Shown here one piece after another: positions 11,015-43,285 of a stretch of DNA of 64,000 nucleotides (within the stretch, counting starts at the first letter, position 1; each line of letters opens with the position of its first letter). A program made the position numbers and the translations under genes. The stretch comes from Lysobacterales bacterium (GTDB lineage: Bacteria > Pseudomonadota > Gammaproteobacteria > Xanthomonadales > SZUA-5). The notes beneath the pieces were generated by a model that saw only the letters and a list, made by a program, of their open reading frames with translations, did no database searches and had not been told where the DNA came from. The DNA lies in the NCBI GenBank assembly GCA_022844165.1, contig JALHMH010000003.1, positions 64,001-128,000 on the forward strand, read 5' to 3'.

Positions 11015-11068
11015 AGGTCTTCGCTTGCGAGTTTCGTTGGCCATAATCCTACGCCGAAGGAGGTGACC

Positions 11069-12286: not shown

Positions 12287-12430
12287 ATGACGGGGGCCTG
12301 CGCCTTCTGGCCCGTCAGCGCCGCTGCGGCAGAAAAGGTGCGACACTGCGATGCTCGTCGCATTCGGTCATGAAGTGTGCAGCATCGTCCAACAATTGTA
12401 CGCTATCCTTCCAACTCTTAACGTAATCAG

Positions 12431-12865: not shown

Positions 12866-13001
12866 CCGTGATTGAAGGGCACCGACTGAATGCCAGCCTG
12901 GCCCGAGACGATGAGACCGCGAAGCACTCGATCACCGATCGAATGGCCAAAGCAGCCAGTATGGCTGCGTAGAACCAACCTACAAAATCTCTGAGGCAGG
13001 A

Positions 13002-15449
13002 ATGGAATCGGCTTTGGCGGTCTTCAGTTTTGCGGCGCGTCGCTTACGGAAAAGGTGGGGAATTACTCTGGTTGTAGTGTTGTCGATCAGCATCGGCGTC
13101 GCCGCCAGCACAACGACACTTGGGTGGGTTCAATCCATTCTTGTCAATCCCCTTCCGACCGTCCCAGACCAGGACCGCATCCTGGCACTCGTCAGCAAGA
13201 CGAATTCCGGTGAGCGTCTGGCCACATCCAACGCCGACTTCCGCGACTTGAAAGAGTCAATGTCGACCCTGACCGGACTTGCCGCCTTTCGCGAAGACTC
13301 TCTGAGCTTTGAGAGAAACGGAAACAGCAGGCGAATCTGGGCGATGTCCGTATCGGGGGGATTCTTCGATGTGCTTGAGATCAGGCCAGTGATCGGCACC
13401 TTCTTCGGATCCGACCCCGCGTCCGTCGACACCACCGGTGGCGCACGCCTTGCGGTCATCAGCTATCGGTTATGGGAGGACGAATTTCTGAGGGATCCAT
13501 CCGTCATCGGGTCAAAGCTATTGCTCAACGGACAAGCGTACACCGTGTCGGGTGTCGCGCCAGCGGGCTTCGATGGGACGGTGGTAGGCCTTGCCTTTGA
13601 TCTTTGGGTTCCGTTGATGCAACGCGACGCATTGCTTGGAGGCGACAACCAATGGCAGGAGGAACGGCGACACCGTTCGCTCAACGTCATCGGCAAGCGA
13701 AGTGGGCTAAGTTCGCTCGAGGATGTTCAAGTGGAACTGGGGGTGGTTGCCGCCAGGCTGGCCCGTGATTATCCAGAACAAAACGTCGGTATCAGCTTTC
13801 AGGCCCTAAAGTTCGCGGATGCGCCATTCGGTGCTCAATCGCTGCTCGCCGATCGGTTGAAACTGATGTATGTCGCCAGCGGTCTTGTGCTTTTGATCGT
13901 CTGCGTCAACCTGATCACGCTCCTTCTGGTACTCACAACGGAACGTCAGCGCGAGTTCGGCGTGCGTTCGGCGCTCGGCGCTACACGCAGCACGATTTTC
14001 CTGCAGGTCCTCGCGGAGGGCGTACTCTTGGGTCTGCTGGCGGCCGCATTGAGCATTCTGGCGGCGCACTATCTTTCGGGTCTGTTGCGCTTTTTTGTAC
14101 CGGATCTGGATCTTCCGATCGCCCTCGAACCCAGGACAGATCGAGTCACCTTGGTCTATGCCCTCGGCGCATCGGTCTGCACTGCCGTGCTCGCCAATTT
14201 TCTGCCAGCAATTCGCGCTTCCAGCATCGATCTCACTCGCGCGCTAACCGACATCACCCGAAGTCAGTCCGTCAGCCGGACTGAGCAACATGTGCAAACG
14301 ACTTTGGTCGTAGCGCAAATTGCCCTTGCTTACATAGCACTCTCCAGTGCCGCGCTGTTCTTAAACGGATACAAATCGCTCACAGAAAGAGATTTGGGAT
14401 TCGAGGCGTCGGGCGTAACGCTCATGGCAACCGCGGCGACTCGTCCCGGACTTGACGCGGCAGCGGTGATTGCATACGCCAACCGGTTACAGACTGGACT
14501 CGTTGAAACGCCCGGCGTTCGATCTGCGGCCTTTGCGGAGTGGGTCCCGATGGGCCTGCACGGTGGCTCCTGGGAGGAGTTGCAGGTGCAAGGGTATTCG
14601 CCAGCGCAGGACGAGAACATGAGGATCCTCAGAAACCTCGTGAGTCCCGCCTATTTCGAGACGATCGGAGTCCCAATTTTGTCGGGACGAGACTTTAGCT
14701 CTCGCGACGTCGGCGAGGCGCCGGCCGTAGCCATCATCAACGAGGAGTTTGCCCGGCGGTTTTTCCGCGGGCGGGATCCGCTGGGTATGCGCCTGATCGG
14801 GTGGGGCCGAGAACTCACGGTGGTGGGGATCGCCCGCGACAGCCGATACACGAAAGCCAATGAACCGCCTCGTCCGTACTTTTATGTCCCGTTTGCGCAA
14901 TTTGCCAATCCTGGGATGTACCCCGTGTTTCACATCTCGTCAGCGATTTCAGCGCGCGAAGCGTCCGAAATGGCCATGTCTGCGTCCCGAAATGCCGGCT
15001 CGGAGATCTATGCCATTTGGACCAAACCGATGTCGAAGTACATCCAGGCTTCGCTTTTCGGCGAAAGAGTAACCGCCATCATCCTTGGCGCACTGGGTGC
15101 TGCGGCCATCTTCATCGCCGCACTGGGCATCTACGGAATGATGGCTTACTCCGTTGCACAAAGAGTGTCCGAAATGGGCACGCGAATGGCACTGGGCGCT
15201 TCGTCGAGGATCGTCCTGGGACTCGTTGCGCGGCGCGGAGCCAGGTTGACCGTGGCAGGCATTGCTACTGGTTTGCTCGGAGCGATCGTAGCCGGGGAAA
15301 AACTGCGAGCACTGATTGGCGGCGTCGTGTCGGAGTTGTGGATTCACGCTGCGGTTGTAACGGCCCTGGCGCTTGTCGCGATGCTCGCGTGCCTGGTGCC
15401 GGGACTGAGAATCGCCCGCCTGCAGCCGGTGGACAGCTTGAAGGGCTGA
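13002..15449 (+). CDS. Duplicated MacB/FtsX-type ABC permease (ADOP-like), no ATPase in window
   Basis: Two MacB_PCD+FtsX halves, RQREFGVRSALGA and RVSEMGTRMALGA motifs, about 815 aa, no Walker A. Confidence 0.88.
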   Translation: MESALAVFSFAARRLRKRWGITLVVVLSISIGVAASTTTLGWVQSILVNPLPTVPDQDRILALVSKTNSGERLATSNADFRDLKESMSTLTGLAAFREDSLSFERNGNSRRIWAMSVSGGFFDVLEIRPVIGTFFGSDPASVDTTGGARLAVISYRLWEDEFLRDPSVIGSKLLLNGQAYTVSGVAPAGFDGTVVGLAFDLWVPLMQRDALLGGDNQWQEERRHRSLNVIGKRSGLSSLEDVQVELGVVAARLARDYPEQNVGISFQALKFADAPFGAQSLLADRLKLMYVASGLVLLIVCVNLITLLLVLTTERQREFGVRSALGATRSTIFLQVLAEGVLLGLLAAALSILAAHYLSGLLRFFVPDLDLPIALEPRTDRVTLVYALGASVCTAVLANFLPAIRASSIDLTRALTDITRSQSVSRTEQHVQTTLVVAQIALAYIALSSAALFLNGYKSLTERDLGFEASGVTLMATAATRPGLDAAAVIAYANRLQTGLVETPGVRSAAFAEWVPMGLHGGSWEELQVQGYSPAQDENMRILRNLVSPAYFETIGVPILSGRDFSSRDVGEAPAVAIINEEFARRFFRGRDPLGMRLIGWGRELTVVGIARDSRYTKANEPPRPYFYVPFAQFANPGMYPVFHISSAISAREASEMAMSASRNAGSEIYAIWTKPMSKYIQASLFGERVTAIILGALGAAAIFIAALGIYGMMAYSVAQRVSEMGTRMALGASSRIVLGLVARRGARLTVAGIATGLLGAIVAGEKLRALIGGVVSELWIHAAVVTALALVAMLACLVPGLRIARLQPVDSLKG

Positions 15450-15509
15450 CTTGTGGCGAATCGTGTCCTAAGCATCGGCATCTCAAAAATCGACACTCAA
15501 GGATCTCCA

Positions 15510-18500
15510 ATGCGCAACGACCTATCGGCATTCACATCTATCGTTGACATCGTAAGAATGCGTGCCCGGGCGGAGCCGAAAAGCGTTGCCTTTCGTTTCT
15601 TAAAGTACCGGCCCAAAGAGGAATCGCTCGTCCTGACGTCCGAAGCTCTGGATGCACGGGCGAAGTCCATCGCTGCCGCTTTGCAACAACACGCTCAGCG
15701 CGGCGATCGGGTGCTGCTGCTTTTTCGGCCAGGCACGGACTTCGTTTGCGCCTTTCTGGGTTGCTTGTATGCGGGAATGGTGGCAGTCCCGTCGAGCGTC
15801 CCTCGATTCGGGCACGGCACGGAACGTCTGCGACGAATCGCCGCGAATGCCGGTGCTTCGATTGCATTGTCCTCATCAGGCGTCTTTGCAGCCATTCGCG
15901 CCGAAGCCAGCCATATAGCGCCCCGCTGGATTGAAATGGAGGACATCGCCGAGACTGATACGAGCGATTCTCTGCAACTTTCTTCAGACGATATCGCGTT
16001 TCTCCAGTACAGCTCGGGTTCCACTGGAGACCCGAAAGGCGTGGTGGTGACGCATGCCAACCTGATGCATCAACTGGCGCTTTTCGCCACCGCCAGCGCT
16101 GCCACGCGGGATAGTTGCATGGTGTCCTGGTTGCCTGTGTTTCACGACCTTGGATTGATCGCAGGGGTTCTTCACCCACTCTATAGCGGCTTTCCCGGCG
16201 TCTTGCTGGCACCGGAGTCGTTTGTCGAAAAACCTGAGCGCTGGCTGCGGGCGATTGCCTCTTTTCGGGCCGATATGACGGCAGCTCCGAATTTTGCGTA
16301 CCAACTTTGCGCTCGGGCCATTTCCGATCAGGAGATGAAGGGTATCGATCTCGCATCGCTGCGTTTCGCATTGAACGGCGCCGAGCCGATCCGCCCATCG
16401 ACGCTGGAGCGATTCGCACAGCGTTTTTCTGCCTGGGGGTTTGATCCTTCTGCCTTCTACCCGGCCTACGGATTGGCGGAAGCCACGCTGCTGGTGACGG
16501 GTGGTGGCGCTCAGGGGGCGAGACCGACGGTCAAGTCCTTCAATTCGCAGTCGTTGGATGACGGCTTTGCGGTACCGGTATTGGACGGTACACCCGGTGC
16601 AAGATGCCTCGCCGCGTCAGGGATGACCATCGAAGGCCAATCTGTGCGCATCGTGGACCCAGAAAAAACCACGGATCTGGGCGCTATGCAAGTCGGCGAG
16701 ATCTGGGTTTCTGGTCAGAGCGTTTGTCGCGGCTATTGGCAGCGCTCTGCAACAACGGAAGAGACCTTCGGGCAGGTGGTGGCGGGGCAGCAACATCCTT
16801 GCTGGCTGCGGACGGGGGATCTGGGATTCCTGTGCGATGGCGAACTCTTCGTTTGCGGCCGCCTGAAAGACCTCCTCCTGATCCGCGGCAGGAACCTTCA
16901 TGCGCCGGATATTGAGGCGACCGTCGAGACGGTTCACGACGGCCTGCGCCCCAATTGCGGTGTCGCGTTTCCGGTGGATATTGAGGGCGAGGAGCGTCTC
17001 GTCGTTGCCCACGAAGTAGACCGGGAGGCCAAATTCGACGATGAGCGACTACTGGAACTCGCGCAAAGCGTTGCAAAGGCCATCGCGCTGCATCATGAGG
17101 TCATGGTTCACGCCGTCGTCCTTCTAAGGCACGGCACAGTGCCGAAAACTTCGAGCGGTAAGCTCCAGCGAAGAGAGGCGCGTCAGCGTTTTCTACAAGG
17201 GAACTTAAAGTCGGTGTTTTCCTGGTCGCCCCCGGCACCAGACCTTGGCGCACCCCAGACACCGGATGCCGCAATCGATGCTCCCACGGATCAAACCCGG
17301 TTGCAGCATCTGCTCGTAGAGGGTCTGGCGGCGATCCTTGGCGTACCCGGAAGCGAAGTCGACATCGATCGGCCGTTCGCCCAATACGCTTTGGATGCGG
17401 CGGGAAAACTCAGGGTCGTCCGCCTGCTGGAGTCAAAGCTGCAACGACCGCTTCCTGCCACTTTGCTTGACGACTTCAAGAACATCAAAGAGCTATGCGA
17501 GACCGGGCAGATTTCCTTCGCCGGAAATGGAGACGGCCTATCGTCCGATGAGCTGGTCAAGGCCGCAGCGGGTGCAATCGCCGCCAGGCCCGCTGGAATG
17601 GTCGAGGACAAAATTGCGATCGTTGGTATCGGCTGCCGATTTCCGGGAGCCGCGAATCCCAGAGACTTCTGGAAGCTGCTGATCGAAGGCGTCGATGCCG
17701 TTACCGAGGTGCCGGCGGATCGTTGGGACATCGACGAGGTATACGACGCTAACCCGCTTGCGTCGAGGAAAATGAACACGCGGTGGGGTGGGTTCGTCGA
17801 AGATATCGATAAGCTCGACCGCAACTTCTTCGGACTGTCCATCCGTGAAGCCGTGCGCATGGATCCGCAGCATCGGTTGATGCTCGAGGTCGCCTGGGAA
17901 GCGCTGGAAGACGCAGGCATTGATCCCGCTACGCTGGCAAACACACAGTCCGGTGTGTTCGTCGGGATCTCGGGTAGTGATTACGCTCAAATGCAGTTTG
18001 GCGACGCATCGTTGGTCGACGCCTACGCGGGACTCGGCTGCGCATTGACCATCGCAGCAAGCAGGATTTCGCACTTCTTGAACCTGCGTGGGCCTGCGAT
18101 CGCGGTCGACACAGCGTGTTCCTCGTCATTGAGTGCGCTTCATCTCGCCTGCGTCAGCTTGCGTCGCGGCGAATGCGAAACCGCTCTGGTTGGCGGCGTG
18201 AACATCTTGCTTTCGCCTGTCGTCACGATGTGCTTGACCAAGGCGGGAATGATGTCGGCCGACGGCCGCTGCAAGGCTTTCGATAGCAGAGCCAATGGCT
18301 ATGTCCGCGCCGAAGGCGCTGGCATTGTCGTGTTGAAGCCACTTTCAAGGGCAATTGCCGATGGGAACGAGATCTATGCGGTCGTTCGCGGTACCGCGTC
18401 GAATCAGGATGGAAGAAGCAGCGGCATCGCGGCACCCAATGGCGAAGCGCAGCAACGCGTTGTTCTAGCCGCTTGCGCAGATGCGGGAATTGCCCCTGGC

Positions 18501-24137: not shown

Positions 24138-24183
24138 GCGAATGCGCTCAACCTCCCTTCACTATCCGATAGGCTGAATCGAC

Positions 24184-25854: not shown

Positions 25855-26611
25855 GCCGCTGGTTGAAACCATGGATTCGCCCTGGTTCCGTACCCTCGGC
25901 GTTTCGCACGCATCTGCCATGCGGTTGTTTTGCTTTCCGTATGCGGGAGCAGGGGCTTCGGCCTTCGTCGCATGGTCCGCCGCAGTTGGTCCTGAGATCC
26001 AGGTAGTTGCCGTCGTGTATCCAGGCCGCGAAACGCGGACTCACGAAAAGCCGCTGGTGCGGCTCGCAGATTTCATCGCGCCATTGGCCTCTGCAATCCG
26101 AACCTGGTCGGATCGGCCGTTCGCATTTTTCGGACATAGCATGGGCGGAAGGATCTGCTTCGAACTTGCCAGGACGCTGGAGGCGTCAGCCGGTCCGGTC
26201 CCAGAGCATGTTTTCGTCTCCGCAGTCGGCGCACCGCATTTGCGCGAGCCGAGGCCTTTGCATGCACTCTCAAATGCTGCATTGCTGCGAGCGCTGGTGC
26301 AGTTGAACGGGATTCCGAACGAAGTCAAGAGGCGTCCTGAGATGTTGGCCCAGGCGCTCCCGGTTCTTCGAGCAGATTTTGAGGTCTGCGAAGCGAGCGA
26401 GTTGGAGTTGGGCAGTCCTCTGATGGCACCTCTGACCGCATATCTTGCGGAAGATGATTGCCGCGTCGAGCCCGAGCGGATTTCGGCTTGGCGAGATCTG
26501 GCAGGGGTCGCCTTTAGACAGCGGAAATTTCCTGGCGACCACTTTTATCTGCGCGCGCAAAGGAATGCCCTGATTGCAGATATCCGTGGTCAGCTTCTCG
26601 CGGGCTGTTGA
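25841..26611 (+). CDS. Type II (editing) thioesterase
   Basis: LFCFPYAGAG, GHSMGG, LRADF and GDHFY motifs; overlaps the end of the exporter gene. Confidence 0.93.
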   Translation: MNSHKPLVETMDSPWFRTLGVSHASAMRLFCFPYAGAGASAFVAWSAAVGPEIQVVAVVYPGRETRTHEKPLVRLADFIAPLASAIRTWSDRPFAFFGHSMGGRICFELARTLEASAGPVPEHVFVSAVGAPHLREPRPLHALSNAALLRALVQLNGIPNEVKRRPEMLAQALPVLRADFEVCEASELELGSPLMAPLTAYLAEDDCRVEPERISAWRDLAGVAFRQRKFPGDHFYLRAQRNALIADIRGQLLAGC

Positions 26612-26760
26612 AAAACAGCCTGCTGGCGCGAACCAGGGATGGTTCGCGGTTGATCGAGCTTGCAAGTGCTTGATCCATTCAGAGCGAGTCTGGACCTGCG
26701 CCGGACTCGCGACGTTGAGAAAGTGCACGAAGGCACTTTCTCTACATCGTGCTAAAGCAC
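26598..26760. mobile_element. MITE-like or structured multi-hairpin element
   Basis: Five to six back-to-back hairpins, with degenerate terminal inverted repeats tcgcgggctgttgaaaaa (26598) and tttctctacatcgtgcta (26737-26754). No transposase. Confidence 0.5.
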
Positions 26761-26800
26761 GCGAAGAGGCCGTGTTTCTAATTTGGTTTTTGGAGCAATC

Positions 26801-33307: not shown

Positions 33308-33309
33308 CT

Positions 33310-36300: not shown

Positions 36301-39300
36301 GTGACCGAGTTGCAAAAACAGATGGTGGAGATCTGGGAGCGTGTACTGGACCGGGACCGAATCGGTATTGGCGACAATTTCTTCGACCTGGGCGGTCACT
36401 CGCTCCTTGCGACGCAGGTTGTTTCGCGGCTGCGAAAGACCACGGCGGTAGAACTGCCGCTTCAGACCATCTTCGAATTTCCTACGATCGAGACCCTGTG
36501 CCTGAACATTGAGGGGAACAGTTGGGCAAGCACAGTTCCGCCGCCGCCATTGTTGCCGTTGGCGATGGACGAAAGTCAGCCGAAAACCGTAGTTCAGTCG
36601 TTTGCCCAGCAGAGGCTTTGGTTCCTGGATCAGCTTGAACCTGGCAGCACCGCCTATTTGGTCGGCATTGCCATGAAAATGACTGGCTTCCTGGATCTTC
36701 GCGTTCTGCAGTCATGCTTCGATGCTCTGGTGGAACGCCATGAAGCATTAAGAACAGTTTTTGACGTCCAGAATGACCAGATGGTGCAGATCGTACTTCC
36801 CCCAACCTCGCCGCTCATATCAATTGCAAATCTGGACGCACTGCCCGAATCGGAGCGTGACGATCGCGCCAGACAACTCATGAAGGAGGAAGTCGAACGG
36901 CCGATGAACCTGCAAACAGGACCGTTGTTGCGGGTTAATCTCATTCGCTTGTCGGCCGAACACCATCTGCTGCAGATTACCACGCATCACATTGTCAACG
37001 ATGCGTGGTCAATTGGTGTGCTGGTCGACGAACTCTCGGTTCGTTATCGAGCCGGTATCGAAGGCAACCCGGCTTCGCTTCAGCCACTAGCCATCCAATA
37101 CACTGATTTTGCTGCCTGGCAAAAAGAGTGGATCCAGTTTGGCGTTCTGGAGGCCTTGCTTCACTACTGGCGACAGCGCCTCGAAGGCGCGCCGGACACG
37201 GTGGCGCTTCCCTTTGACCGCCCCCGACATGTTTCGCGCGGCTTTCGGGGGGCTCGGGTTGGTTTCGCATTCGATTCGGCCACCACATCGTCACTTCAGG
37301 CGCTTGCAAAAGCCAATAACGCAACACTATTTATTGTCTTGCTCGCGGCTTTCAAGGCGCTTTTGTTTCGGTATACCGGCCAGGACGATATGGTGGTTGG
37401 ATCGCCAATCGCCAACCGCAATCGCGACGAACTCGAGCCGCTGATCGGTTTCTTTGTGAATACGCTTGTACTCAGGACCGATTTGTCGGGAGATCCAGAT
37501 TTTCGTAAGACCATTTCCCGAGTTCGGGATGTCGCGCTCGGCGCATATGCACATCAGGACCTTCCGTTCGAGAAGTTGGTGGAGCAGCTGGGGCCCGAGC
37601 GGCGCTGGGGGCGTTCACCGTTGTTTCAAGTGATGTTCGTTCTACAAAATGCTCCTGCGGGAGAATTGTCGCTTCCGGGATTGAAGCTCTCGCCGGTCAG
37701 GTTAGAAAACACGACGGCAAAGTTCGACCTTAGTCTCCATATCCAGCAGGTCGGCGATCGGATCGAAGGCGAGTGTGAATTCAGCAGCGACCTGTTCGAA
37801 ACATCAACGATCACACGGATGATGTCGCACTATCAAGGACTGGTCGCCGCGGTATTGGAGGACCCGAGTCGGCGATTGTCGCAACTTAAGTTGTTGTCTT
37901 CCTCGGAACACGACAATTTGCGGCAGTGGGGAGAAGGCAGGAAGGGCGAAGTCGTTGGGACAGTGTTGTCCTGGTTCGATGCGTTGGTGTTATCGGATGC
38001 AGGTTCACCGGCGCTGGTTGAGGATGGTGAGACGGTGAGCTATGGCTCGTTGCACACCCGGTCTTTGCATTTGGCGCAGACGCTGGCGGCGCGCGGGGTC
38101 GGCGATTCTGGCATCGTAGGTTTGGCGTTGTCAGGTTTAGTCGATCGTGTAACGGCGATGTTGGCGTCGTGGCGCTTGGGGGCGGCCTTTTTGCCGTTGG
38201 ATTTATCCCACCCGCAAGCACGGTTGCATTGGATGCTGGAGGATGCTGGTGCGGTGATGGTGCTGGCGCGTGGCGATATTGGGTGGGACAAGAGCCGAAC
38301 GCTGGACCTGTATGGAATCCAATGGCCCGAGGGTGCTATGGCAGTAGTGCCTGCTGTGGATCTGCCGGCCGGGTTGCTCGCCTATGTGATCTACACGTCC
38401 GGGTCCAGCGGTCGACCCAAATGCGTGGAGATCGACCATAGTGGCCTGGCGAATTTGGTGGTCTGGCACAACAGGACATTCGCGGTAGACAAGACCAGTA
38501 TGGCCTCGCAACTGGCAGGACCCGCATTCGATGCATCGTTGTGGGAGATATGGCCTTATTTGTCAGCGGGCGGAACCGTGAGCGCGGTTCCTGCGGAGAT
38601 TCGTGTGAATCCCGAGGCCTTGATCCTCTGGCTGAGTGCGCATGGGATGACCCACGCATTTATGCCAACGCCTTTGGGCGAAGCGTGTTTAGACGAACCC
38701 TGGCCCGAGTCGACGCGACTTAAGACTCTGCTGGTCGGCGGGGACGTGCTGCATCGTCGTCCGCGAAGCGGCTTGCCGTTCCGGCTGTACAACGCATACG
38801 GGCCGACCGAGGGGACGGTCGTATCGACGTGCGATGAGGTGCTGTCCGATGAGATCGGATTGCCGCCGATCGGCAGGCCGATCGACAACGTCCGCGTATA
38901 CGTGCTCGATGCCCATGGCGAGCCGGTGCCGATCGGGGTGGCAGGCGAGCTGTGCATCGCTGGGCGAGGCCTGGCGCGTGGCTACCGCGGCGACGAGCAG
39001 CGCACGGCGGAGCAGTTCGTGGAGCATGGCGAGTTCGCGGGCGGGCGCGTGTACCGTTCTGGCGATCGGGCACGATTTCGTGCCGATGGACGCCTGGAAT
39101 TTCTAGGCCGTTTGGATGCGCAAATCAAGTTGCGTGGTATGCGTATCGAACCGGGCGAAATTGAGGCCGAACTGCTCGCCATTGAAGGGGTATCTGAAGC
39201 ACTCGTGGTTGCTGATGACATCTTCACGAATACAAAGCGCCTCGTCGCTTATGTGGTTCCAGCCGCCCATGCGAATCCTGATGTCGACAACCTGCTGGAG

Positions 39301-40635
39301 TCCCTGAGACTGAAACTGCCAGAACACATGGTGCCGACTTCGGTGGTCTTCCTGGACCGGATTCCGGTGACAGCGAACGGTAAGTTGGATCGCACTGCTC
39401 TGCCTTCCCCGAGCCTGCGTCACGCAGACTTTATTGACACCGTATTGCCACCCAGGGACGCGATTGAGCGGGCGCTTGTCGAGATCTGGGAAGAGTTGCT
39501 GGGCGTCAGTCCGATTGGCATATCCCAGAACTTCTTTGCGTTGGGCGGACACTCGCTTCTGGCGGCCCGACTGCAGGGCGCGCTGCGCGAACGATTCGGT
39601 CTGACCGTTCCTTTCCATGCGCTCTTCCAGAATGCGACGATTTCAAACCTGTCCGAGTTCATTCGCGCTCACCACGACGGAGAGACGCGCCCCAGCAACG
39701 CCGTCCGCCCAACCGAACCGGTGAAAGATGGTCAGCAAGCTGGATTCTGGAGTCGATTGAAACAGGTTTTCAGGAGTTCACGACGGCCACCCAAAAGTTC
39801 GGATCCCGCACGGACGTTGAGTGCTGAGGAAGTCAAGCGTGTGCTCGTCTCTTTACAAGAGGGCGACCCAGGAGCAGCGACACTGGTGCTGATCCATCCG
39901 GTCGCGGGGCGCGTGTTCTGTTATGGCGAGCTGGTAGCGGCACTCGGAAAGCAATGCCGGATTTTCGGCCTGGAATCAACGCATTTGCCGAAAGAGGAAC
40001 GGTCGATCGAGACGCTTGCCGACTACTACGCCACCGTCATTGGCTCGCTTGCAGAAATGCAGCGTGAGTACCACATACTCGGGTGGTCGCTCGGGGGACT
40101 CGTCGCGTTCGATGCCGCCCGCCTCCTTTACAAAAGGGGAAATCCCCCGAAGAACGTCGTTTTGATCGATAGCTTTCCGACCGAGCTGAACCGAGCTGAC
40201 GATTCATCCGAGGAGTCGCTACTTGCGCAATATGCGGCCGACCTGGCGGCACAATACGGACAAGTCACCATCGAGTTACCCTCGCCTCCGTCGGCAACAT
40301 CGGAGGGATTCGACGTGCTCTGGCAGACGCTTATTGCCGCAGGCATTGATATCGACCGGCAAATACTCGAATCCAGTTGGCAGGAGTATCGCATTAATAG
40401 AAAGGCGTGGGCTCGTTTCAAACCAGAGAATTACGCGGGCAGAGTGCATTTGATCACCGCTACCGAAACACTCGAGACGCAAAAACGCACTCCATTGAAG
40501 ATCTGGGGTTCCCTGGCCAACGGCGGCTTTGGAATCGACGTCCTGCCTGGAAATCATTACACCCTTTTGAAATCTCCATTGGTTCATGTCGTCGCAAATC
40601 GCCTGGATCAAATTATAAGAACATCCCCGCCTTAA
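33310..40635 (+). CDS. NRPS 2: C-A(Ala)-T-C-A(Leu-like)-T-TE
   Basis: N-terminal docking helix LTPEKEKLLAKLL; C motifs HHIVADG and HHIVNDA; A codes DLFNNALTYK (classic Ala) and DAWFLGAVVK; two GGHSL T domains; TE GWSLGG...GNHY. Confidence 0.95.
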   Translation: MSETLTPEKEKLLAKLLGDHGATGKWHRIVRGTDGPEHPQSFAQRMLWFQYLLRPYSSAYNIHSATRLRGPLQVQALNLAVNAVVARHEPLRTLFDEDNGLPIQRVSASLELTVPTIDLTHFDEERKMAEAMRLIHGEAVRPFDLRRGPLLRLHLIKLSTQEHILLFNVHHIVADGWSLGVLAGEVSEIYRAKIEGQEAKLAGLPIRYADYARWQHKTLKGQTLESLLSFWKSSLQDAPPILQLPYKRSNGTTSADHGSGMSFRVEYRTTELLRKAAGRSGASLFMILFATYAVLLRRYSGQDDIVIGTPIAGRHSEEMEPLIGHFVNMLAIRVRLTGALAFADLLLDARAACLAAFEHQALPFDRLVEELAPDRNVLFPPIFQAVFSLQNAPGEPLSLADLSATRVEYELKLAKFPIALDLEESNGGLDGVFQFSTAHLDESVVRAMMSDYQRMLETIAVQVNVDVRSLSAPDRATYRRVVDEFNRTELAITYPGGLHVLFERQAELTPNSVAVEAGANKRTYADVNSGADRFAHALVGRRVNRGDVVGVLLPRSPVLIEALLGILKSGATYLPMDPAYPDERLRLLLADSGAVGVVTNAELGARLPHRDSFWKLSSEMLEEPPGPVESTRVDPEQAAYLIYTSGSTGQPKGVIIEHQNAVALLNWAWTAYGRDELSRVLASTSICFDLSVFEIFVPLSVGGCVVVVDSALDLAESHRVTLLNTVPSIMTELIRFDRLPSSVRTVNLAGEALPLSLVKDIERISPHVRLLNLYGPSEDTTYSTWHEVDPSEDVAPPIGRPIANTQAYVLDADMNPVPLGVTGEIYLGGAGVARGYLGRPELTKERFVNDPFSGQPKARLYKTGDRGRQRSDGTLEYLGRGDGQVKIRGCRIELAEVEVVAEACAPGFRVVVDFSDADSSNGRRLIGFLECGIDAAPAERDLISKLRSRLPEVMVPTEWSFVETFPRNSNGKIDRAKLRLSLPLGSIERDESEYRPPVTELQKQMVEIWERVLDRDRIGIGDNFFDLGGHSLLATQVVSRLRKTTAVELPLQTIFEFPTIETLCLNIEGNSWASTVPPPPLLPLAMDESQPKTVVQSFAQQRLWFLDQLEPGSTAYLVGIAMKMTGFLDLRVLQSCFDALVERHEALRTVFDVQNDQMVQIVLPPTSPLISIANLDALPESERDDRARQLMKEEVERPMNLQTGPLLRVNLIRLSAEHHLLQITTHHIVNDAWSIGVLVDELSVRYRAGIEGNPASLQPLAIQYTDFAAWQKEWIQFGVLEALLHYWRQRLEGAPDTVALPFDRPRHVSRGFRGARVGFAFDSATTSSLQALAKANNATLFIVLLAAFKALLFRYTGQDDMVVGSPIANRNRDELEPLIGFFVNTLVLRTDLSGDPDFRKTISRVRDVALGAYAHQDLPFEKLVEQLGPERRWGRSPLFQVMFVLQNAPAGELSLPGLKLSPVRLENTTAKFDLSLHIQQVGDRIEGECEFSSDLFETSTITRMMSHYQGLVAAVLEDPSRRLSQLKLLSSSEHDNLRQWGEGRKGEVVGTVLSWFDALVLSDAGSPALVEDGETVSYGSLHTRSLHLAQTLAARGVGDSGIVGLALSGLVDRVTAMLASWRLGAAFLPLDLSHPQARLHWMLEDAGAVMVLARGDIGWDKSRTLDLYGIQWPEGAMAVVPAVDLPAGLLAYVIYTSGSSGRPKCVEIDHSGLANLVVWHNRTFAVDKTSMASQLAGPAFDASLWEIWPYLSAGGTVSAVPAEIRVNPEALILWLSAHGMTHAFMPTPLGEACLDEPWPESTRLKTLLVGGDVLHRRPRSGLPFRLYNAYGPTEGTVVSTCDEVLSDEIGLPPIGRPIDNVRVYVLDAHGEPVPIGVAGELCIAGRGLARGYRGDEQRTAEQFVEHGEFAGGRVYRSGDRARFRADGRLEFLGRLDAQIKLRGMRIEPGEIEAELLAIEGVSEALVVADDIFTNTKRLVAYVVPAAHANPDVDNLLESLRLKLPEHMVPTSVVFLDRIPVTANGKLDRTALPSPSLRHADFIDTVLPPRDAIERALVEIWEELLGVSPIGISQNFFALGGHSLLAARLQGALRERFGLTVPFHALFQNATISNLSEFIRAHHDGETRPSNAVRPTEPVKDGQQAGFWSRLKQVFRSSRRPPKSSDPARTLSAEEVKRVLVSLQEGDPGAATLVLIHPVAGRVFCYGELVAALGKQCRIFGLESTHLPKEERSIETLADYYATVIGSLAEMQREYHILGWSLGGLVAFDAARLLYKRGNPPKNVVLIDSFPTELNRADDSSEESLLAQYAADLAAQYGQVTIELPSPPSATSEGFDVLWQTLIAAGIDIDRQILESSWQEYRINRKAWARFKPENYAGRVHLITATETLETQKRTPLKIWGSLANGGFGIDVLPGNHYTLLKSPLVHVVANRLDQIIRTSPP
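37782..39191 (+). repeat. Direct repeat copy 2 (end of C domain plus A-core of module 4)
   Basis: Near-identical to 31279-32688; about a dozen substitutions by eye, clustered near the ends. Confidence 0.95.
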
Positions 40636-40769
40636 TGACCGCGAATATCCTGGTCGACAAGTATAGAAACCTGTTCTCAAAAAACGATAAGCCGGCAAAA
40701 TCACCGGCGCAGCCACACAACCAGTCGCAGCAATTTTTCTGCCCGCGCTACAGACCTTGTGACACGTAG
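40635..40769 (+). CDS. Possible 44-aa small ORF coupled to NRPS 2
   Basis: TAATG stop/start overlap; MTANILVDKYRNLFSKNDKPAKSPAQPHNQSQQFFCPRYRPCDT. No family recognised. Confidence 0.35.
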   Translation: MTANILVDKYRNLFSKNDKPAKSPAQPHNQSQQFFCPRYRPCDT

Positions 40770-40797
40770 TTGGATCATTGAAAACCGGAGGTAGCTT

Positions 40798-41592
40798 ATG
40801 AAAGTCCGAGAAAAAGAAGTTGCCCTGCGGCCGAAAAAACCGTGGTTCTCTCACGATGGCGGGTCGTTCGAAGGCGCGGAGCCTTTCTACTTCGAAACCT
40901 CGGGTTTTCCGTGGGTGGCGCGCATCGAACAACACTGGGAGACCATCCGCGACGAACTTGTGGGTCTGGCAAATGAACACAATGACAGTCTGCAGCCCTA
41001 TGCGAACACATCGATGATCTCACGGCCGAAAAGCTGGAAGACTTTTGGGTTGATGTTCTGGTCAATCGTCACTCGGAAGAACTGCATAAAGGCGCCCAAG
41101 ACATGGGCGTTATTGAAGACGATTCCCAATATTACCGCAGCGTCCTTCAACTTGCTCGAGCCTGGTGCCACGATAAAGCCCCACAATGGGGATACTAATG
41201 CAATTATTCGTTGCCATCTCGGGTTGGTAGTTCCGGGAACTGCGCCGCAGTGTGCTTTTCGCGTAGGCAGCGAAATTAGAGGCTGGGAAGAGGGCAAGTT
41301 CCTTATGTTCTGCGACGCGCATGAGCACACGGCTTGGAATAATACCAACCAGCTGCGATATATATTAGTTGTTGATGTGATGAGACCCGAATACGCGGCT
41401 CGATCACGAGCGATTTCGGCTCGAGTGTTGGCTTCCATCAATATGCAAATTTGTTACCAGAATTTTGAGTGGCTCCGCCGCCTGTTTGGGAGTGAACGTG
41501 CCCGGAGGATGGTATTCGCGCTTTTCCGTCTTTTCCATAACATACAGCTCCTGGTATGGCTTCCTGCATCGAATAAGCTGCTCCGTTCCTAG
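40798..41592 (+). CDS. Aspartyl/asparaginyl beta-hydroxylase-family (LpxO-like) Fe(II)/2-oxoglutarate dioxygenase
   Basis: W-x-TIRDEL, WKTFGL, LEPGATIKPHNGD (HxD), RCHLGL, WEEGK...DAHEHTAWN and R-x-ILVVD motifs. GGAGG RBS. Confidence 0.9.
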   Translation: MKVREKEVALRPKKPWFSHDGGSFEGAEPFYFETSGFPWVARIEQHWETIRDELVGLANEHNDSLQPYANTSMISRPKSWKTFGLMFWSIVTRKNCIKAPKTWALLKTIPNITAASFNLLEPGATIKPHNGDTNAIIRCHLGLVVPGTAPQCAFRVGSEIRGWEEGKFLMFCDAHEHTAWNNTNQLRYILVVDVMRPEYAARSRAISARVLASINMQICYQNFEWLRRLFGSERARRMVFALFRLFHNIQLLVWLPASNKLLRS

Positions 41593-41653
41593 CGTTCTTA
41601 AGACGATCCCAAAAAATCACTGAACTTGTTTTCTGGCGAGCCAACGACTTCTA

Positions 41654-42493
41654 ATGTACAAGACGGTTCAGTACTGGAAAATGGTGGCGATCGGAAATGA
41701 GTTCGTGCTGATACACGGCGAGGATGTGCCCTGCGAGGCTGACTATGGAGAGCTTGCCAGAACCCTGTGCAACCGAAAAGGCGGAGTCGGCGCGGACGGC
41801 CTTTTGATTCTCTTTTCTCGCGTCCTGAGAATGTTTAATCCCGACGGATCGGAGGATTTCTGCGGCAACGGTCTCAGATGTGCTGCCGTACATGGCTTCT
41901 CTAACGGAAGTCTGAGGGCGGAGGATGTTATCTTGCACCAAGGCGTTCCAGTCCAGATATCAATGACTGGGGAAAGCCGGTCGAAAATTAAACTTCCACC
42001 GGCCAGTTTCGAGCCTGAGCATGTTCCGATACGTGCTCGAAGAGAGATTTTCTCGAAACCCATACTCATTGCGAACCGAGAGAGAGAAATTAGCTGTCTA
42101 AGCACAGGGTCTACCCATACTGTGCTGTTTTCTCCATGCCCTGTTCCAGACGACGAGTTCATTGAGTTGGGCACGGCACTCGAAAATCACCCGCTGTTTC
42201 CGAGGCGCACGTCAACCATGTTTGCCTGTCCGCTGGATGATCGATATATCCTGATGCGACCATTTGAGCGTGGCGTTGGTGAGACACGTGGATGCGGAAC
42301 CGGCTCTGCAGCGGTGGTAGTCGTTTGGGCAAGGAAAAGCGGATTGAGCGGGAGGTTCGCGGTTGTCAATACCGGCGGTATGGTCGAAGTGTGTCTTGAC
42401 GATTGGACCGGTTCGATTACATTGGAGTCCGAGGTTAGTATGATCGAATCAGGTCATTTCTGTATCGAAAAGGCGCCCAATGAATATCGTTGA
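41654..42493 (+). CDS. DapF-fold PLP-independent amino-acid epimerase/racemase (divergent)
   Basis: GNEFVL, GVGADG, FNPDGSEDFCGNGLRC and ERGVGETRGCGTG with both catalytic Cys. The GNPH and NV motifs are altered. Confidence 0.88.
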   Translation: MYKTVQYWKMVAIGNEFVLIHGEDVPCEADYGELARTLCNRKGGVGADGLLILFSRVLRMFNPDGSEDFCGNGLRCAAVHGFSNGSLRAEDVILHQGVPVQISMTGESRSKIKLPPASFEPEHVPIRARREIFSKPILIANREREISCLSTGSTHTVLFSPCPVPDDEFIELGTALENHPLFPRRTSTMFACPLDDRYILMRPFERGVGETRGCGTGSAAVVVVWARKSGLSGRFAVVNTGGMVEVCLDDWTGSITLESEVSMIESGHFCIEKAPNEYR

Positions 42494-43232
42494 TCCGCAG
42501 TTGCGCCTCAGCATGAGTGGCAGGAGTGGATCTTTCCGTGATCTTGGTTGCCAGACAAATCGATCTCTGGTTTTCCGAGGATTCGAATTCGAATCGGAGT
42601 TTGGCATAATAATCGGGGCCATAGCGTCCATTCGATTGATCGGCGATACTTCCCGTCTGAGGCGCTGCGGTCTTGTGAATGACGACGAAATTTCGCGGAT
42701 GCTGTTTTATCGACGTACCGACGATCAAGAGCGCTTTATACTTGGTCGGGCGCTGGCCCGAACGCTGCTGGAATCGTCGAGTGGTTTGAGCGCATCGTGT
42801 ATACGGTTTGTGCCGAGTTCGCTCGGCAAACCTCAAAGTGAGCCGTCTTGTGGGCAATTCAACATCTCACATTCAGCCGAACTCGTGATTGTGGTAGCAA
42901 GCCCGATAGTTCAATTGGGGGTTGATATCGAGTGGCGAGAGGCACGTCCACCATTTGAGATTTCTCGTTCGTTTATGCACGCTCAGGAACTACGGCAAAT
43001 GGGGGCGTGTATTGACGAAGACTCGAGACGGACGTACTTCTATAATGTATTTACGCGCAAAGAAGCTGTTCTAAAGGCGATTGGCGCTGGATTCAGCATC
43101 GATCCAAGCTCCGTATTCGTCGGAGGCAGTGGCGAGCGACTTGAGCGGTTGTTTGACTTAGCGGACCTGGTGGAGGTACGTACGTTGGCGTTGACCGGGG
43201 CATACGCCTGCCACATCGCTGCGATCCGATAG
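42480..43232 (+). CDS. Sfp-type 4'-phosphopantetheinyl transferase
   Basis: GKP, FNISHS, LGVDIE and FTRKEAVLKAIG motifs. N-terminus/start uncertain. Confidence 0.88.
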   Translation: MNIVDPQLRLSMSGRSGSFRDLGCQTNRSLVFRGFEFESEFGIIIGAIASIRLIGDTSRLRRCGLVNDDEISRMLFYRRTDDQERFILGRALARTLLESSSGLSASCIRFVPSSLGKPQSEPSCGQFNISHSAELVIVVASPIVQLGVDIEWREARPPFEISRSFMHAQELRQMGACIDEDSRRTYFYNVFTRKEAVLKAIGAGFSIDPSSVFVGGSGERLERLFDLADLVEVRTLALTGAYACHIAAIR

Positions 43233-43285
43233 GGCTCCAGGAAGAACGCCGATGTCCTGGGTACTTCTGCCGGTTCCTTTGGGCG

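What the first reader, a model, noticed from the sequence alone, without database searches (positions are those of the whole stretch)
13002..43232. Apparently uncharacterised FAAL-PKS/NRPS lipo-tetrapeptide cluster with its own hydroxylase, epimerase and two exporters
Seen: one co-directional, tightly packed gene set (permease, PKS, PvdE exporter, TEII, NRPS1, NRPS2, dioxygenase, DapF-like, PPTase). Complementary docking helices (PKS C-term LDELSDEEVNAIL; NRPS1 C-term IESMSTAEARATL; NRPS2 N-term LTPEKEKLLAKLL) support the order PKS to NRPS1 to NRPS2. Established: FAAL-ACP-PKS starters make lipopeptides; DLFNNALTYK is an Ala code and DAWFLGNVVK a Leu code. Inference: the product is roughly (3-hydroxy)acyl-Lys(or other basic residue)-Leu-Ala-Leu, released or cyclised by the TE through the beta-OH or the Lys epsilon-amine, and tailored by the dioxygenase and epimerase. 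I do not recognise a known compound with this architecture. Third-position AT content is visibly higher than in the flanks, suggesting horizontal acquisition.
Basis: partly seen in the sequence, partly recalled or inferred. Interest (0 to 1): 0.88.

Follow-up and report, generated by a model that had tools for sequence, protein, structure and literature searches.

The report
Orphan lipo-tetrapeptide gene cluster
This is a real, intact gene cluster for a small fatty-acid-capped four-residue peptide whose product is unknown; it is a fairly ordinary orphan natural-product cluster, though it belongs to a rarely seen cluster family.

Summary
Window 13002-43232 carries nine co-directional, tightly packed genes: an ADOP/MacB-like permease, a FAAL-KS-AT-DH-KR-ACP synthase, a cyclic-peptide ABC exporter, a type II thioesterase, two bimodular NRPSs (the second ends in a TE), a PF05118 AspH/LpxO-type dioxygenase, a DapF paralog and an Sfp-type PPTase.

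- The repeated pocket code is DAWFLGAVVK, not DAWFLGNVVK.
- The carrier-like domain after the FAAL has Ala at the aligned attachment-Ser position.
- The GC3 dip is weak except in the last three genes.

New findings:
- Five other places carry parts of the same cluster plan: a second cluster in this genome, Tahibacter soli, Dyella jejuensis, Alteromonas sp. a30 and, on thinner evidence, genome G067. Four share the core gene order at 38-50% identity, all six places have the same module-1 pocket, and they carry 1-5 PF05118 hydroxylases.
- The sister species has no match to the dioxygenase or the FAAL part of the PKS.
- No protein above 40% identity turned up in 5.8 billion clusters, and seven paper searches found no described product.

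Best reading: acyl(+C2)-(Lys/Arg-like)-Leu-Ala-Leu, all-L on the assembly line, hydroxylated once and exported. It is an orphan cluster of a known kind, with moderate interest.

The parts
12275..44785 (.). Stretch with no counterpart beside the matching flanks of the sister-species genome G001. It holds the cluster plus a truncated DUF2807 ORF, a LysR gene and a DUF4267 ORF.
   Evidence: tblastx of the G001 flanks stops at window 12274 on the left and resumes at 44786 on the right.
13002..15449 (+). ADOP-family duplicated MacB/FtsX-type permease, 815 aa
   Evidence: TIGR03434 scores 630.3 bits against a cut-off of 622.3. MacB_PCD and FtsX each match in two stretches.
15453..24137 (+). Hybrid loading/PKS protein of 2894 aa: FAAL, ACP-like domain without the aligned Ser, KS, AT, DH, ER remnant, KR, ACP
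   Evidence: Pfam domains. The FAAL part ranks with solved FAALs at 240-485 bits, against 84 bits for the acyl-CoA synthetase FadD13.
17313..17501 (+). ACP-like domain after the FAAL (PKS residues about 621-683). It has Ala at the aligned phosphopantetheine-Ser position.
   Evidence: PP-binding scores 32.8 bits. The aligned motif reads ALDAAG. At that column the relatives have Gly (Tahibacter), Gly (Alteromonas), Thr (Dyella) and Pro (second own cluster). Alteromonas and the second own cluster have a Ser one residue earlier.
21981..22538 (+). Degenerate enoylreductase-like remnant in the PKS (residues about 2177-2362)
   Evidence: ADH_N at 21.1 bits and ADH_zinc_N at 20.6 bits are both below their cut-offs. 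Where I recall the NADPH glycine motif, the window and three relatives show nothing like it.
23766..23954 (+). C-terminal ACP of the PKS with a canonical GLDS motif, followed by an acidic docking-like tail
   Evidence: PP-binding scores 41.3 bits. The motif and tail are conserved in 4 of 4 aligned PKSs.
24184..25854 (+). Cyclic-peptide export ABC transporter with fused permease and ATPase, 556 aa
   Evidence: TIGR01194 scores 484.5 bits against a cut-off of 286.2.
25832..26611 (+). Type II thioesterase, 259 aa
   Evidence: PF00975 scores 144.1 bits.
26801..33307 (+). NRPS1: C-A-T-C-A-T, modules 1 and 2. The likely start is the ATG at 26801.
   Evidence: Pfam. The protein collection holds this protein as a 2168-aa entry. 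Pocket codes are DAENIGTVTK and DAWFLGAVVK.
33310..40635 (+). NRPS2: C-A-T-C-A-T-TE, modules 3 and 4
   Evidence: Pfam. Pocket codes are DLFNNALTYK and DAWFLGAVVK. The TE has GWSLG and a downstream His.
31279..32706 (+). Copy 1 of a 1428-bp direct repeat covering the end of the C domain, the C-A linker and the A core of module 2
   Evidence: blastn gives 98.7% identity, 18 mismatches and no gaps. All 18 mismatches lie at the two ends, and 31607-32599 is identical to copy 2.
37782..39209 (+). Copy 2 of the repeat, in module 4
40798..41592 (+). PF05118 (AspH/LpxO/OlsC-type) Fe/2-oxoglutarate dioxygenase, 264 aa
   Evidence: PF05118 scores 162.5 bits. The OlsC model scores 148 against a cut-off of 450 and the LpxO model 89 against 500. 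Human AspH scores 95 bits, and two His of the query pair with His of the AspH chain. There is no strongly hydrophobic segment.
41654..42493 (+). DapF-family two-cysteine epimerase/racemase paralog, 279 aa
   Evidence: TIGR00652 scores 142 bits against a cut-off of 114.65. The housekeeping dapF scores 253.6 bits on contig C36. Both Cys motifs are kept and two pocket Asn positions are Ser.
42480..43232 (+). Sfp/HetI-type 4'-phosphopantetheinyl transferase, 250 aa. It overlaps the DapF paralog by 14 nt.
   Evidence: ACPS and AASDHPPT_N domains. The HetI model scores 65 bits, below its cut-off.
43286..44203 (+). LysR/GcvA-like regulator, a possible cluster regulator
   Evidence: HTH_1 and LysR_substrate domains. 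GC3 is 0.716. It lies inside the stretch missing beside the G001 flanks.

Best explanation
The region is an intact hybrid fatty-acid/polyketide/non-ribosomal-peptide assembly line. It most likely makes a small secreted lipopeptide.

**Shown by domain content**
- A fatty acyl-AMP ligase domain is fused to one PKS module: KS, AT with GHSVG and YAFH motifs, a DH-like domain, a dead ER remnant, KR and ACP.
- Four C-A-T modules follow on two proteins, and the last ends in a thioesterase.
- The cluster also encodes a type II thioesterase, a PPTase, an ABC exporter and a MacB-like permease.

**Inferred course of synthesis**
1. The FAAL adenylates a long-chain fatty acid.
2. The domain that follows has Ala at the aligned attachment-Ser position. 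The acyl group is therefore probably passed to the KS by way of the C-terminal ACP.
3. The KS adds one malonyl unit, and the KR, possibly with the DH, leaves a 3-hydroxy- or 2-enoyl-acyl-ACP.
4. The first C domain couples this acyl group to residue 1, a Lys/Arg-like residue.
5. Leu-like, Ala and Leu-like residues follow, all as L-amino acids.
6. The TE releases the product. It may cyclise it through the acyl 3-OH or the residue-1 side-chain amine. That would explain why both features are conserved across the related clusters.
7. The single PF05118 dioxygenase groups most closely with one hydroxylase in each of two related clusters. I infer that it hydroxylates a conserved part of the product, either the acyl chain next to its carbonyl or residue 1.
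8. The DapF paralog is a working-looking two-Cys racemase with an altered pocket. It occurs only in this cluster and its substrate is unknown.
For: **Architecture and tight packing:**

**Catalytic motifs present**
- KS motifs DTACSS, HGTGT and NIGH, and AT motifs GHSVG and YAFH.
- KR Tyr and the ACP2 GLDS motif.
- HHxxxD in all 4 C domains.
- TE motif GWSLG.

**FAAL identity:** solved FAALs score 240-485 bits against 84 bits for an acyl-CoA synthetase.

**Pockets**
- Modules 2 and 4 match McyB at 8 of 9 readable positions in the PDB alignment.
- Module 1 is nearest to ApnA A1.
- Module 3 reads DLFNNALTYK.

**Stereochemistry:** all four C domains score 153-252 bits to TycC6 (2jgp), against 61-130 bits to SrfA-C (2vsq) and 65-120 bits to TycB1 (9bfd_B). 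No E domain is present.

**Order of the three synthases:** acidic C-terminal tails and basic N-terminal helices recur in the relatives.

**Conserved plan in related clusters**
- The order FAAL-PKS, ABC, TEII, NRPS ... TE, then 1-5 PF05118 genes, holds in four other clusters.
- All 6 places examined have the module-1 code D[AT]E[ND][IV]GTV[TSA]K.
- The window's dioxygenase groups with one Tahibacter hydroxylase and one from the second own cluster, with moderate support of 83/89.
Against: - There is no metabolite or expression evidence.
- The genome looks like a low-coverage metagenome assembly. The only runs holding the sequence are metagenomes, at depths of about 2-8.
- The post-FAAL carrier has no Ser at the aligned attachment position, so loading may be impaired or may work in a way I cannot show.
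- The DH has Glu at the position where I recall the second DH motif having its catalytic Asp. The KR reads LDN where I recall B-type KRs having LDD. The oxidation state of the acyl C3 is therefore open.
- The substrate calls rest on pocket codes placed in a register I recalled. That register was checked only against two PDB alignments. No trained predictor was available.
- The L-donor and D-donor labels of the PDB reference C domains are recalled, not tested.
- The targets of the dioxygenase and of the DapF paralog are inferences.
- The 993-bp perfectly identical core of the A2/A4 repeat could be an assembly collapse. Contigs from other runs show variants inside it.
Confidence: 0.7

Rival explanations
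1. The product is not a secreted antibiotic or surfactant. It is an envelope-resident aminolipid-like molecule: an NRPS-made analogue of ornithine or lysine lipids. The LpxO/OlsC-type dioxygenase would 2-hydroxylate the acyl chain, and the MacB/LolCE-like permease would place the molecule in the outer membrane.
For: - The dioxygenase's best NCBIfam hits are the acyl 2-hydroxylases OlsC (148 bits) and LpxO (89 bits).
- The permease is of the MacB/LolC type.
- The conserved start of all six products is an acyl group on a basic-type residue.
Against: - Both dioxygenase hits are far below their cut-offs of 450 and 500.
- The enzyme scores as well to human AspH, a peptide hydroxylase.
- Relatives carry up to 5 paralogs alongside 7-8 modules, which suggests that peptide residues are targets.
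- A cyclic-peptide exporter is conserved in the family, but the permease is not. It was adjacent on the same strand only in Alteromonas.
Confidence: 0.1
2. The cluster is silent or functionally impaired. It would be an acquired remnant whose loading step is broken by loss of the carrier Ser, so that no product is made.
For: - The aligned Ser is Ala in the post-FAAL carrier.
- The ER is degenerate.
Against: - No stop codon interrupts the nine ORFs, which span about 30 kb, and the other catalytic motifs are intact.
- No Ser stands at the aligned position in any of the 5 aligned PKSs, although two have a Ser one residue earlier. This looks like a family trait under conservation rather than fresh decay.
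- The C-terminal ACP is canonical.
Confidence: 0.12
3. The product is a lipopeptide siderophore or metallophore that binds metal through hydroxylated residues.
For: By general knowledge, hydroxylated residues are metal ligands in many lipopeptide siderophores. A hydroxylase is present in the cluster.
Against: - None of the four pocket codes reads as Asp, His or hydroxy-Orn by my recalled code assignments.
- Pfam found no catechol or hydroxamate enzymes and no TonB-receptor or siderophore-uptake domains in the cluster proteins and the small ORFs scanned in 12275-44785.
- There is only one hydroxylase.
Confidence: 0.03
4. The cluster as read is partly an assembly artefact: a chimera, or a collapse across the 1.4-kb NRPS repeat, in a metagenome-derived genome.
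For: - The two repeat copies share a 993-bp perfectly identical core.
- Coverage is low and the independent contigs are fragmentary.
- One X1 contig differs from the window at 8 places inside the repeat.
Against: - The two copies have distinct ends and unique flanks, and both keep the reading frame.
- Short contigs from four runs in two studies match many parts of the region with 0-1 differences.
- The gene order matches that of the independent relatives.
Confidence: 0.03

Closest known systems
Mycosubtilin/iturin (MycA) and ralsolamycin (RmyA/RmyB) assembly lines
   Same: An N-terminal FAAL is fused to a ketosynthase-containing module that feeds a multi-modular NRPS ending in a TE. A cyclic-peptide transporter sits next to the synthetase genes. 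I read this in passages of PMC4989320.
   Different: - Those lines carry aminotransferase domains, and RmyA also carries monooxygenase domains, which produce beta-amino fatty acids (PMC4989320 passages). Here Pfam finds no aminotransferase and finds AT-DH-KR instead.
- Ralsolamycin has 10 predicted adenylation domains (PMC4989320 passage); the 7 residues of mycosubtilin are recalled. This cluster has 4 modules.
- Sequence identity was not measured.
FAAL-PKS fusions such as micacocidin and the desmamides; puwainaphycin FAAL plus PKS/NRPS
   Same: A FAAL primes a type I PKS and/or NRPS. I took this from one passage of the FAAL review PMC11837247 and from the search-listing abstract of PMC4219810.
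   Different: [quoted passage not shown] Here that domain has no Ser at the aligned attachment position.
- The tailoring set of a PF05118 dioxygenase and a DapF paralog is not mentioned in the passages I read.
AspH / LpxO / OlsC (PF05118 Fe/2OG hydroxylases)
   Same: The fold family is the same. Two His residues pair with His in the human AspH alignment, and I recall these as the iron ligands. From recall, all three known enzymes hydroxylate a carbon next to a carbonyl.
   Different: - The protein is below the NCBIfam cut-offs for OlsC and LpxO.
- It has no strongly hydrophobic segment.
- It is embedded in NRPS clusters, in 1-5 tandem copies.
DapF and DapF-family racemases of secondary metabolism (DcsC O-ureidoserine racemase)
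   Same: Both catalytic Cys motifs (CGNG and CGTG) are present. The protein is above the TIGR00652 cut-off. The DcsC structure 7vdy is among the PDB hits at 62 bits.
   Different: - It is a second copy beside a stronger housekeeping dapF.
- Two pocket Asn positions are Ser (SMGNPH becomes STGSTH and RTNTEF becomes RTSTMF). That these Asn residues bind the distal end of DAP is recalled.
- The substrate is unknown.
McyB module 1 and ApnA A1 adenylation domains (solved structures 8hlk and 4d4g)
   Same: - The pocket of modules 2 and 4 equals that of McyB at 8 of 9 readable positions.
- The module-1 pocket shares the D-x-E-x-I-G pattern with ApnA A1.
   Different: - Position 322 is Ala here and Asn in McyB.
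- Module 1 differs from ApnA A1 at 5 of 9 positions.
- The substrates of the two reference domains (Leu; Arg or Tyr) are recalled, not taken from a call.

Membership tests
FAAL-primed hybrid PKS-NRPS lipopeptide synthetase | N-terminal fatty acyl-AMP ligase domain | tested here: met
   AMP-binding scores 210 bits. Solved FAALs rank first at 240-485 bits, and the acyl-CoA synthetase FadD13 scores 84 bits.
FAAL-primed hybrid PKS-NRPS lipopeptide synthetase | Carrier domain with a phosphopantetheine-Ser directly after the FAAL | tested here: not met
   The domain is recognisable as PP-binding at 32.8 bits. The aligned Ser position is Ala. No Ser stands at that column in any of the 5 aligned PKSs, and 2 of the 5 have a Ser one residue earlier.
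FAAL-primed hybrid PKS-NRPS lipopeptide synthetase | Active KS, AT, KR and ACP extension module | tested here: met
   The motifs DTACSS, HGTGT, NIGH and GHSVG are.
FAAL-primed hybrid PKS-NRPS lipopeptide synthetase | Co-linear C-A-T modules ending in a TE, plus a PPTase | tested here: met
Iturin/mycosubtilin/ralsolamycin type (beta-amino fatty acid lipopeptides) | Aminotransferase domain after the KS | tested here: not met
   None of the 17 Pfam families matched on the PKS is an aminotransferase.
Lipo-initiation by a starter C domain (surfactin, daptomycin or Pseudomonas CLP type) | The first C domain is of the starter type and takes an acyl-CoA or free ACP donor | tested here: not met
   The first C domain scores 153-154 bits to TycC6 and the fuscachelin PCP-C structure. 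It scores about 60 bits to 7c1h, and CDA-C1 is not listed at E<=1e-10. I recall 7c1h and CDA-C1 as starter C domains. The donor here is an in-line PKS ACP.
D-residue-containing NRPS line | E domains, or D-donor or dual C/E condensation domains | tested here: not met
   Each NRPS has only two Condensation matches and no E domain. All 4 C domains score higher to TycC6 than to SrfA-C or TycB1. The reference labels are recalled. No dual C/E reference was available.
DapF (true diaminopimelate epimerase) | Score above the equivalog cut-off, and two catalytic Cys | tested here: met
   The protein scores 142.2 bits against a cut-off of 114.65. CGNG and CGTG are aligned with those of solved DapF structures.
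DapF (true diaminopimelate epimerase) | Conserved substrate-pocket Asn residues, and being the genome's only copy | tested here: not met
   Two Asn positions are Ser. A 253.6-bit dapF lies on contig C36.
LpxO / OlsC acyl 2-hydroxylases | Score above the NCBIfam equivalog cut-off | tested here: not met
   The OlsC model scores 148.4 against 450 and the LpxO model 89.1 against 500.
PF05118 Asp/Asn beta-hydroxylase superfamily | Pfam gathering score, and the two His positions | tested here: met
   The protein scores 162.5 bits against 22.6. Two His of the query pair with His in the AspH alignment. Their role as metal ligands is recalled.
   484.5 bits against 286.2

The most novel reading that the evidence does not exclude
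The window cluster is the smallest seen member of an undescribed family of Gram-negative lipopeptide lines. Three things would set the family apart.
- The FAAL loads without a carrier of its own, because the following domain has lost the aligned Ser.
- The product always starts with a C2-extended acyl group on a Lys/Arg-type residue.
- AspH/LpxO-type dioxygenases, which I cannot recall being described as NRPS tailoring enzymes, hydroxylate carbons next to carbonyls. One core enzyme would act on the conserved acyl-residue-1 head, and extra paralogs on variable residues.

The products would be NRPS-built, hydroxylated aminolipid-like peptides.
Probability: 0.2. Interest if true: 0.6.

Novelty: new variant of a known kind. 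Interest (0 to 1): 0.4.

Why it matters
Orphan NRPS/PKS clusters are very common, so the cluster by itself is a routine genome-mining lead for a short, probably cationic, lipopeptide.

Three points give it some extra value.
- It is the minimal member, with four modules and one hydroxylase, of a sparsely distributed cluster family with a conserved head group. That makes it the easiest member to express and solve.
- PF05118 dioxygenases as the family's hallmark tailoring enzymes, and a FAAL followed by a carrier-like domain with no Ser at the aligned position, are biochemically testable oddities.
- The 1.4-kb near-identical exchange between modules 2 and 4 is a natural example of the C-end, linker and A-core recombination unit that NRPS engineers try to copy.

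Tried and rejected

**Paper searches that found no described compound or cluster of this plan**
- Pocket codes as words (0 papers).
- FAAL, lipopeptide and Xanthomonadales.
- Dyella, Tahibacter, lipopeptide and NRPS. I read passages of two hits. PMC12964202 concerns the variovoracins and PMC13291983 concerns PUFA-type hybrids. Both deal with other clusters.
- PF05118 with nonribosomal (0 papers).
- Asparaginyl beta-hydroxylase, lipopeptide, NRPS and FAAL.
- LpxO with lipopeptide cluster.
- Aspartyl beta-hydroxylase, NRPS and depsipeptide.

**Other searches that added little**
- The Atlas look-ups gave only family-level names.
- The order-level scan with NRPS1 gave 30 of 399 genomes at E<=1e-200, all at 30-41% identity. 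That is generic NRPS similarity, not orthology.

**Expression:** no RNA holder was listed for the sequence, so expression could not be addressed.

**Signs of a mobile element or a promoter**
- No tRNA was found in the window.
- No flanking direct repeats were found.
- The 12200-13100 intergenic stretch had 0 promoter-like and 0 terminator-like sites, which is within the shuffle expectation.

**Considered and dropped**
- D-amino-acid supply by the DapF paralog to module 1. The downstream C domain scores as L-donor type, and the module-1 code is the same in relatives that showed only one DapF match per genome, at 29-35% identity, none inside the cluster stretches I fetched.
- Diaminopimelate as residue 1. 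I could neither support nor exclude it.

**Not run:** Complex prediction, structure prediction and the search of protein representatives. The module order already follows from the domain logic, and a pass would not have changed my odds.

Full report
**1. What is there**

Window 13002-43232 holds nine ORFs on the + strand. The gaps between them run from -23 to +189 nt. Pfam and NCBIfam identify them as follows.

| Coordinates | Product | Key score |
|---|---|---|
| 13002-15449 | ADOP-family MacB/FtsX-type duplicated permease | TIGR03434, 630 bits (cut-off 622) |
| 15453-24137 | 2894-aa protein: FAAL, carrier-like domain, KS, AT, DH, KR, ACP | see section 2 |
| 24184-25854 | Cyclic-peptide export ABC transporter | TIGR01194, 484 bits (cut-off 286) |
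| 25832-26611 | Type II thioesterase | PF00975, 144 bits |
| 26801-33307 | NRPS1: C-A-T-C-A-T | |
| 33310-40635 | NRPS2: C-A-T-C-A-T-TE | |
| 40798-41592 | PF05118 dioxygenase | 162.5 bits |
| 41654-42493 | DapF-family protein | TIGR00652, 142 bits (cut-off 114.65) |
| 42480-43232 | Sfp/HetI-type PPTase | ACPS 49.7 bits |

The ORF list starts NRPS1 at a TTG at 26783. The ATG at 26801 gives the 2168-aa protein held in the large protein collection. A LysR/GcvA-like regulator follows at 43286-44203.

**2. Details of the PKS**

- The N-terminal 600 aa score 240-485 bits against solved fatty acyl-AMP ligases. They score only 84 bits against the acyl-CoA synthetase FadD13.
- The KS has the motifs DTACSS, HGTGT and NIGH. 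The AT has GHSVG and YAFH. From recall of AT motifs, YAFH points to malonyl rather than methylmalonyl.
- The segment after the FAAL is recognisable as a PP-binding domain at 32.8 bits. Where my alignment and recalled ACP consensus place the attachment Ser, the window has Ala. Tahibacter and Alteromonas have Gly, Dyella has Thr, and the second cluster of the same genome has Pro. Alteromonas and the second own cluster have a Ser one residue earlier.
- The C-terminal ACP is canonical, with GLDS.
- Between the DH and the KR lies a degenerate ER-like stretch. ADH_N scores 21.1 bits and ADH_zinc_N 20.6 bits, both below cut-off. Where I recall the NADPH glycine motif, the window and three relatives show nothing like it.
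- The DH keeps its His (HPLVT). It has Glu where I recall the second DH motif having its catalytic Asp.
- The KR reads LDN where I recall B-type KRs having LDD, and it lacks the Trp I recall for A-type KRs.

The acyl chain is therefore extended by one malonyl unit. It is left as a 3-hydroxy or a 2-enoyl acyl group, and I cannot say which.

**3. Substrate pockets**

I read the ten specificity positions from the core motifs. The register was recalled. I then checked it against two PDB alignments.

- **Modules 2 and 4** both read DAWFLGAVVK. The best solved match for this pocket region is McyB (8hlk, 102 bits). At the same columns McyB reads DAWFLGNVV, so 8 of 9 readable positions agree. I recall McyB module 1 as loading Leu.
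- **Module 3** reads DLFNNALTYK in my manual register. The automatic alignment misplaced one gap.
- **Module 1** reads DAENIGTVTK. Its nearest solved pocket region is ApnA A1 (4d4g, 89.6 bits, against 54.2 for the next hit). At those columns ApnA A1 reads DVESIGVIA. I recall that domain as accepting Arg and Tyr.

Residue 1 is therefore a Lys/Arg-type residue with moderate confidence. No trained predictor was available.

**4. Stereochemistry and the DapF paralog**

Each NRPS has exactly two Condensation matches and no epimerisation domain. The four C domains score as follows against solved structures.

| Reference | Type (recalled) | Bits for the four C domains |
|---|---|---|
| TycC6 (2jgp) | L-donor | 153, 201, 205, 252 |
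| SrfA-C (2vsq) | D-donor | 61, 96, 107, 130 |
| TycB1 (9bfd_B) | D-donor | 65, 84, 93, 120 |

The line therefore looks all-L.

The DapF-like protein is a second copy. The housekeeping dapF scores 253.6 bits on contig C36. The paralog keeps both catalytic Cys motifs, but it has Ser at two pocket Asn positions (STGSTH and RTSTMF). The O-ureidoserine racemase DcsC is among its PDB hits. It looks like an active PLP-independent racemase with a changed substrate.

The relatives showed only one DapF match per genome, at 29-35% identity. None lay inside the cluster stretches I fetched. I cannot assign its role.

**5. An internal exchange**

A 1428-bp direct repeat of 98.7% identity links 31279-32706 in module 2 with 37782-39209 in module 4. 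It covers the end of the C domain, the C-A linker and the A core.

All 18 mismatches lie at the two ends, and 993 bp in the middle are identical. This explains the identical pockets.

Low-depth contigs from public runs show a few variants inside that core. Some collapse during assembly is therefore possible.

**6. Relatives**

A scan of one genome per species found only four loci related to NRPS1, at 26-38% identity. The cluster plan nevertheless recurs.

| Cluster | PKS | ABC | TEII | A domains | PF05118 genes |
|---|---|---|---|---|---|
| Tahibacter soli | 43% | 50% | 47% | 7 | 3 |
| Alteromonas sp. a30 | 38% | 49% | 41% | 8 | 5 |
| Dyella jejuensis | 40% | 48% | 44% | at least 3 | at least 2 |
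| Second cluster, own genome | 43% | 50% | 50% | not complete | 4 |

- In Alteromonas the permease is also present, at 32% identity.
- The Dyella cluster is broken over contigs.
- The second own cluster is split between contig C32 and the far end of contig C3, about 140 kb from the first. It has one hydroxylase on C32 and three at the end of C3.

The first module has the same pocket pattern, D[AT]E[ND][IV]GTV[TSA]K, in all 6 places examined. Genome G067 of the same family is included in that count.

In a tree of the 15 hydroxylases and one outgroup, the window's enzyme groups with one Tahibacter copy and one copy of the second own cluster. Support is 83/89, so this is moderate and not decisive. 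Other copies form a separate clade with 100/99 support.

I take the window cluster to be a minimal member of the family, carrying only the core hydroxylase.

**7. Distribution and origin**

Close homologues of the hydroxylase (E<=1e-55) are rare.
- In a class-level sample, 2 of 400 scored genomes had one, counting the window's own genome. One further genome could not be scored.
- In an order-level sample, 3 of 399 genomes had one, again counting the own genome. The other two belong to one genus of the same family.

The only other species of the genus, G001 (99% complete), has no hydroxylase match at E<=1e-20. Its only matches to the FAAL-KS part of the PKS are to the KS.

Synteny with G001 stops at window 12274 and resumes at 44786. 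In G001 the two flanks lie on different contigs. The G001 DNA that continues beyond the left flank matches other contigs of the window's own genome. The window flanks themselves are housekeeping genes, such as mur ligases, rsmH, slt and yidC.

I found no tRNA, integrase-type repeat or other mobility mark. Gain here and loss in the sister lineage are both possible. The patchy distribution favours gain.

**8. Novelty**

- In the 5.8-billion-cluster protein collection, the module-1 half of NRPS1 has no listed relative above 40% identity. Of 8000 candidates scored, 7058 reached E<=1e-100, and the best 120 are listed at 32-40% identity.
- Seven paper searches found no compound or cluster with this plan.
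- MIBiG and antiSMASH were not available, so 'uncharacterised' remains the best available statement and not a proof.

**9. How it probably works**

The model is the one given under Best explanation, together with its marks of what is shown and what is inferred. In short, a fatty acid is adenylated, extended by one malonyl unit and coupled to a Lys/Arg-like residue. Leu-like, Ala and Leu-like residues follow, and the TE releases the product.

- The acidic PKS tail and the basic helix before the first C domain recur across the family.
- The conserved acyl 3-OH (or 2-ene) and the conserved basic residue 1 are both candidate nucleophiles for cyclisation by the TE. The data do not choose between them.
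- The core dioxygenase most likely acts on the conserved head of the molecule. This is an inference from conservation. It also draws on the recalled chemistry of AspH, LpxO and OlsC, which all hydroxylate next to a carbonyl.

**10. Caveats**

- There is no expression or metabolite evidence.
- The sequence was held only by low-depth metagenome runs.
- Several labels are recalled and marked as such: the C-domain types of the PDB entries, the substrates of McyB and ApnA A1, the roles of the DapF pocket residues, and the KR, DH and AT motif rules.

Noticed in passing
G000 contig C32:32768-54553 and contig C3:245134-248889 (outside the window): The same genome holds a second cluster of the same plan, at 37-60% identity to the window genes. 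It has a PF05118 gene, a FAAL-PKS, an ABC exporter, a TEII and an NRPS that runs off the end of C32. A T-TE end and three tandem PF05118 genes sit at the end of C3. The two pieces probably join across a contig gap.
   Followed up: partly
window 31279-32706 and 37782-39209: A 1428-bp repeat at 98.7% identity swaps the C-end, linker and A core between modules 2 and 4. Its central 993 bp are identical. Contigs from other runs carry variants inside that core, for example at 31809/31810 and at the matching 38312/38313. The core may therefore be partly collapsed in assembly.
   Followed up: partly
window 17313-17501, and the same domain in L001, L002, L036-L038 and G000:C32: The carrier-like domain after the FAAL has no Ser at the aligned attachment position in any of the 5 aligned PKSs. 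Two of them have a Ser one residue earlier. How the FAAL hands over its acyl group is unexplained.
   Followed up: partly
L033-L035 (Tahibacter soli) and L036-L038 (Alteromonas sp. a30): The longer relatives use a second kind of inter-protein junction. The upstream proteins end in ...EEMQW or ...EVEW, and the downstream proteins begin with a roughly 60-aa N-terminal domain that resembles the N-terminal docking domains I recall from some NRPSs. Tahibacter has four consecutive modules with one identical pocket. By recall of the codes it looks Gln-like.
   Followed up: no
window 24001-44000 in public runs X1-X3 and X5: Short contigs with 0-1 differences to the window occur in runs of two studies. 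The runs are labelled drinking-water and activated-carbon metagenomes, and depth is about 2-8. The best holder may be the source sample, so it is not independent support.
   Followed up: partly
window 12431-12865 and 44154-44729: Two small ORFs lie at the edges of the stretch missing from the sister species. One is a DUF2807 fragment that matches only model positions 103-179 of 181. The other is a DUF4267 protein on the - strand.
   Followed up: no
window 1-12300 and 44786-64000: The flanks are core chromosome. Genes include Mur ligases, rsmH/mraW, slt, hutF, a NahK/ErcS-like hybrid kinase, a Na/H exchanger, an M23 peptidase, yidC, a PLD-type enzyme and a POT transporter.
   Followed up: no
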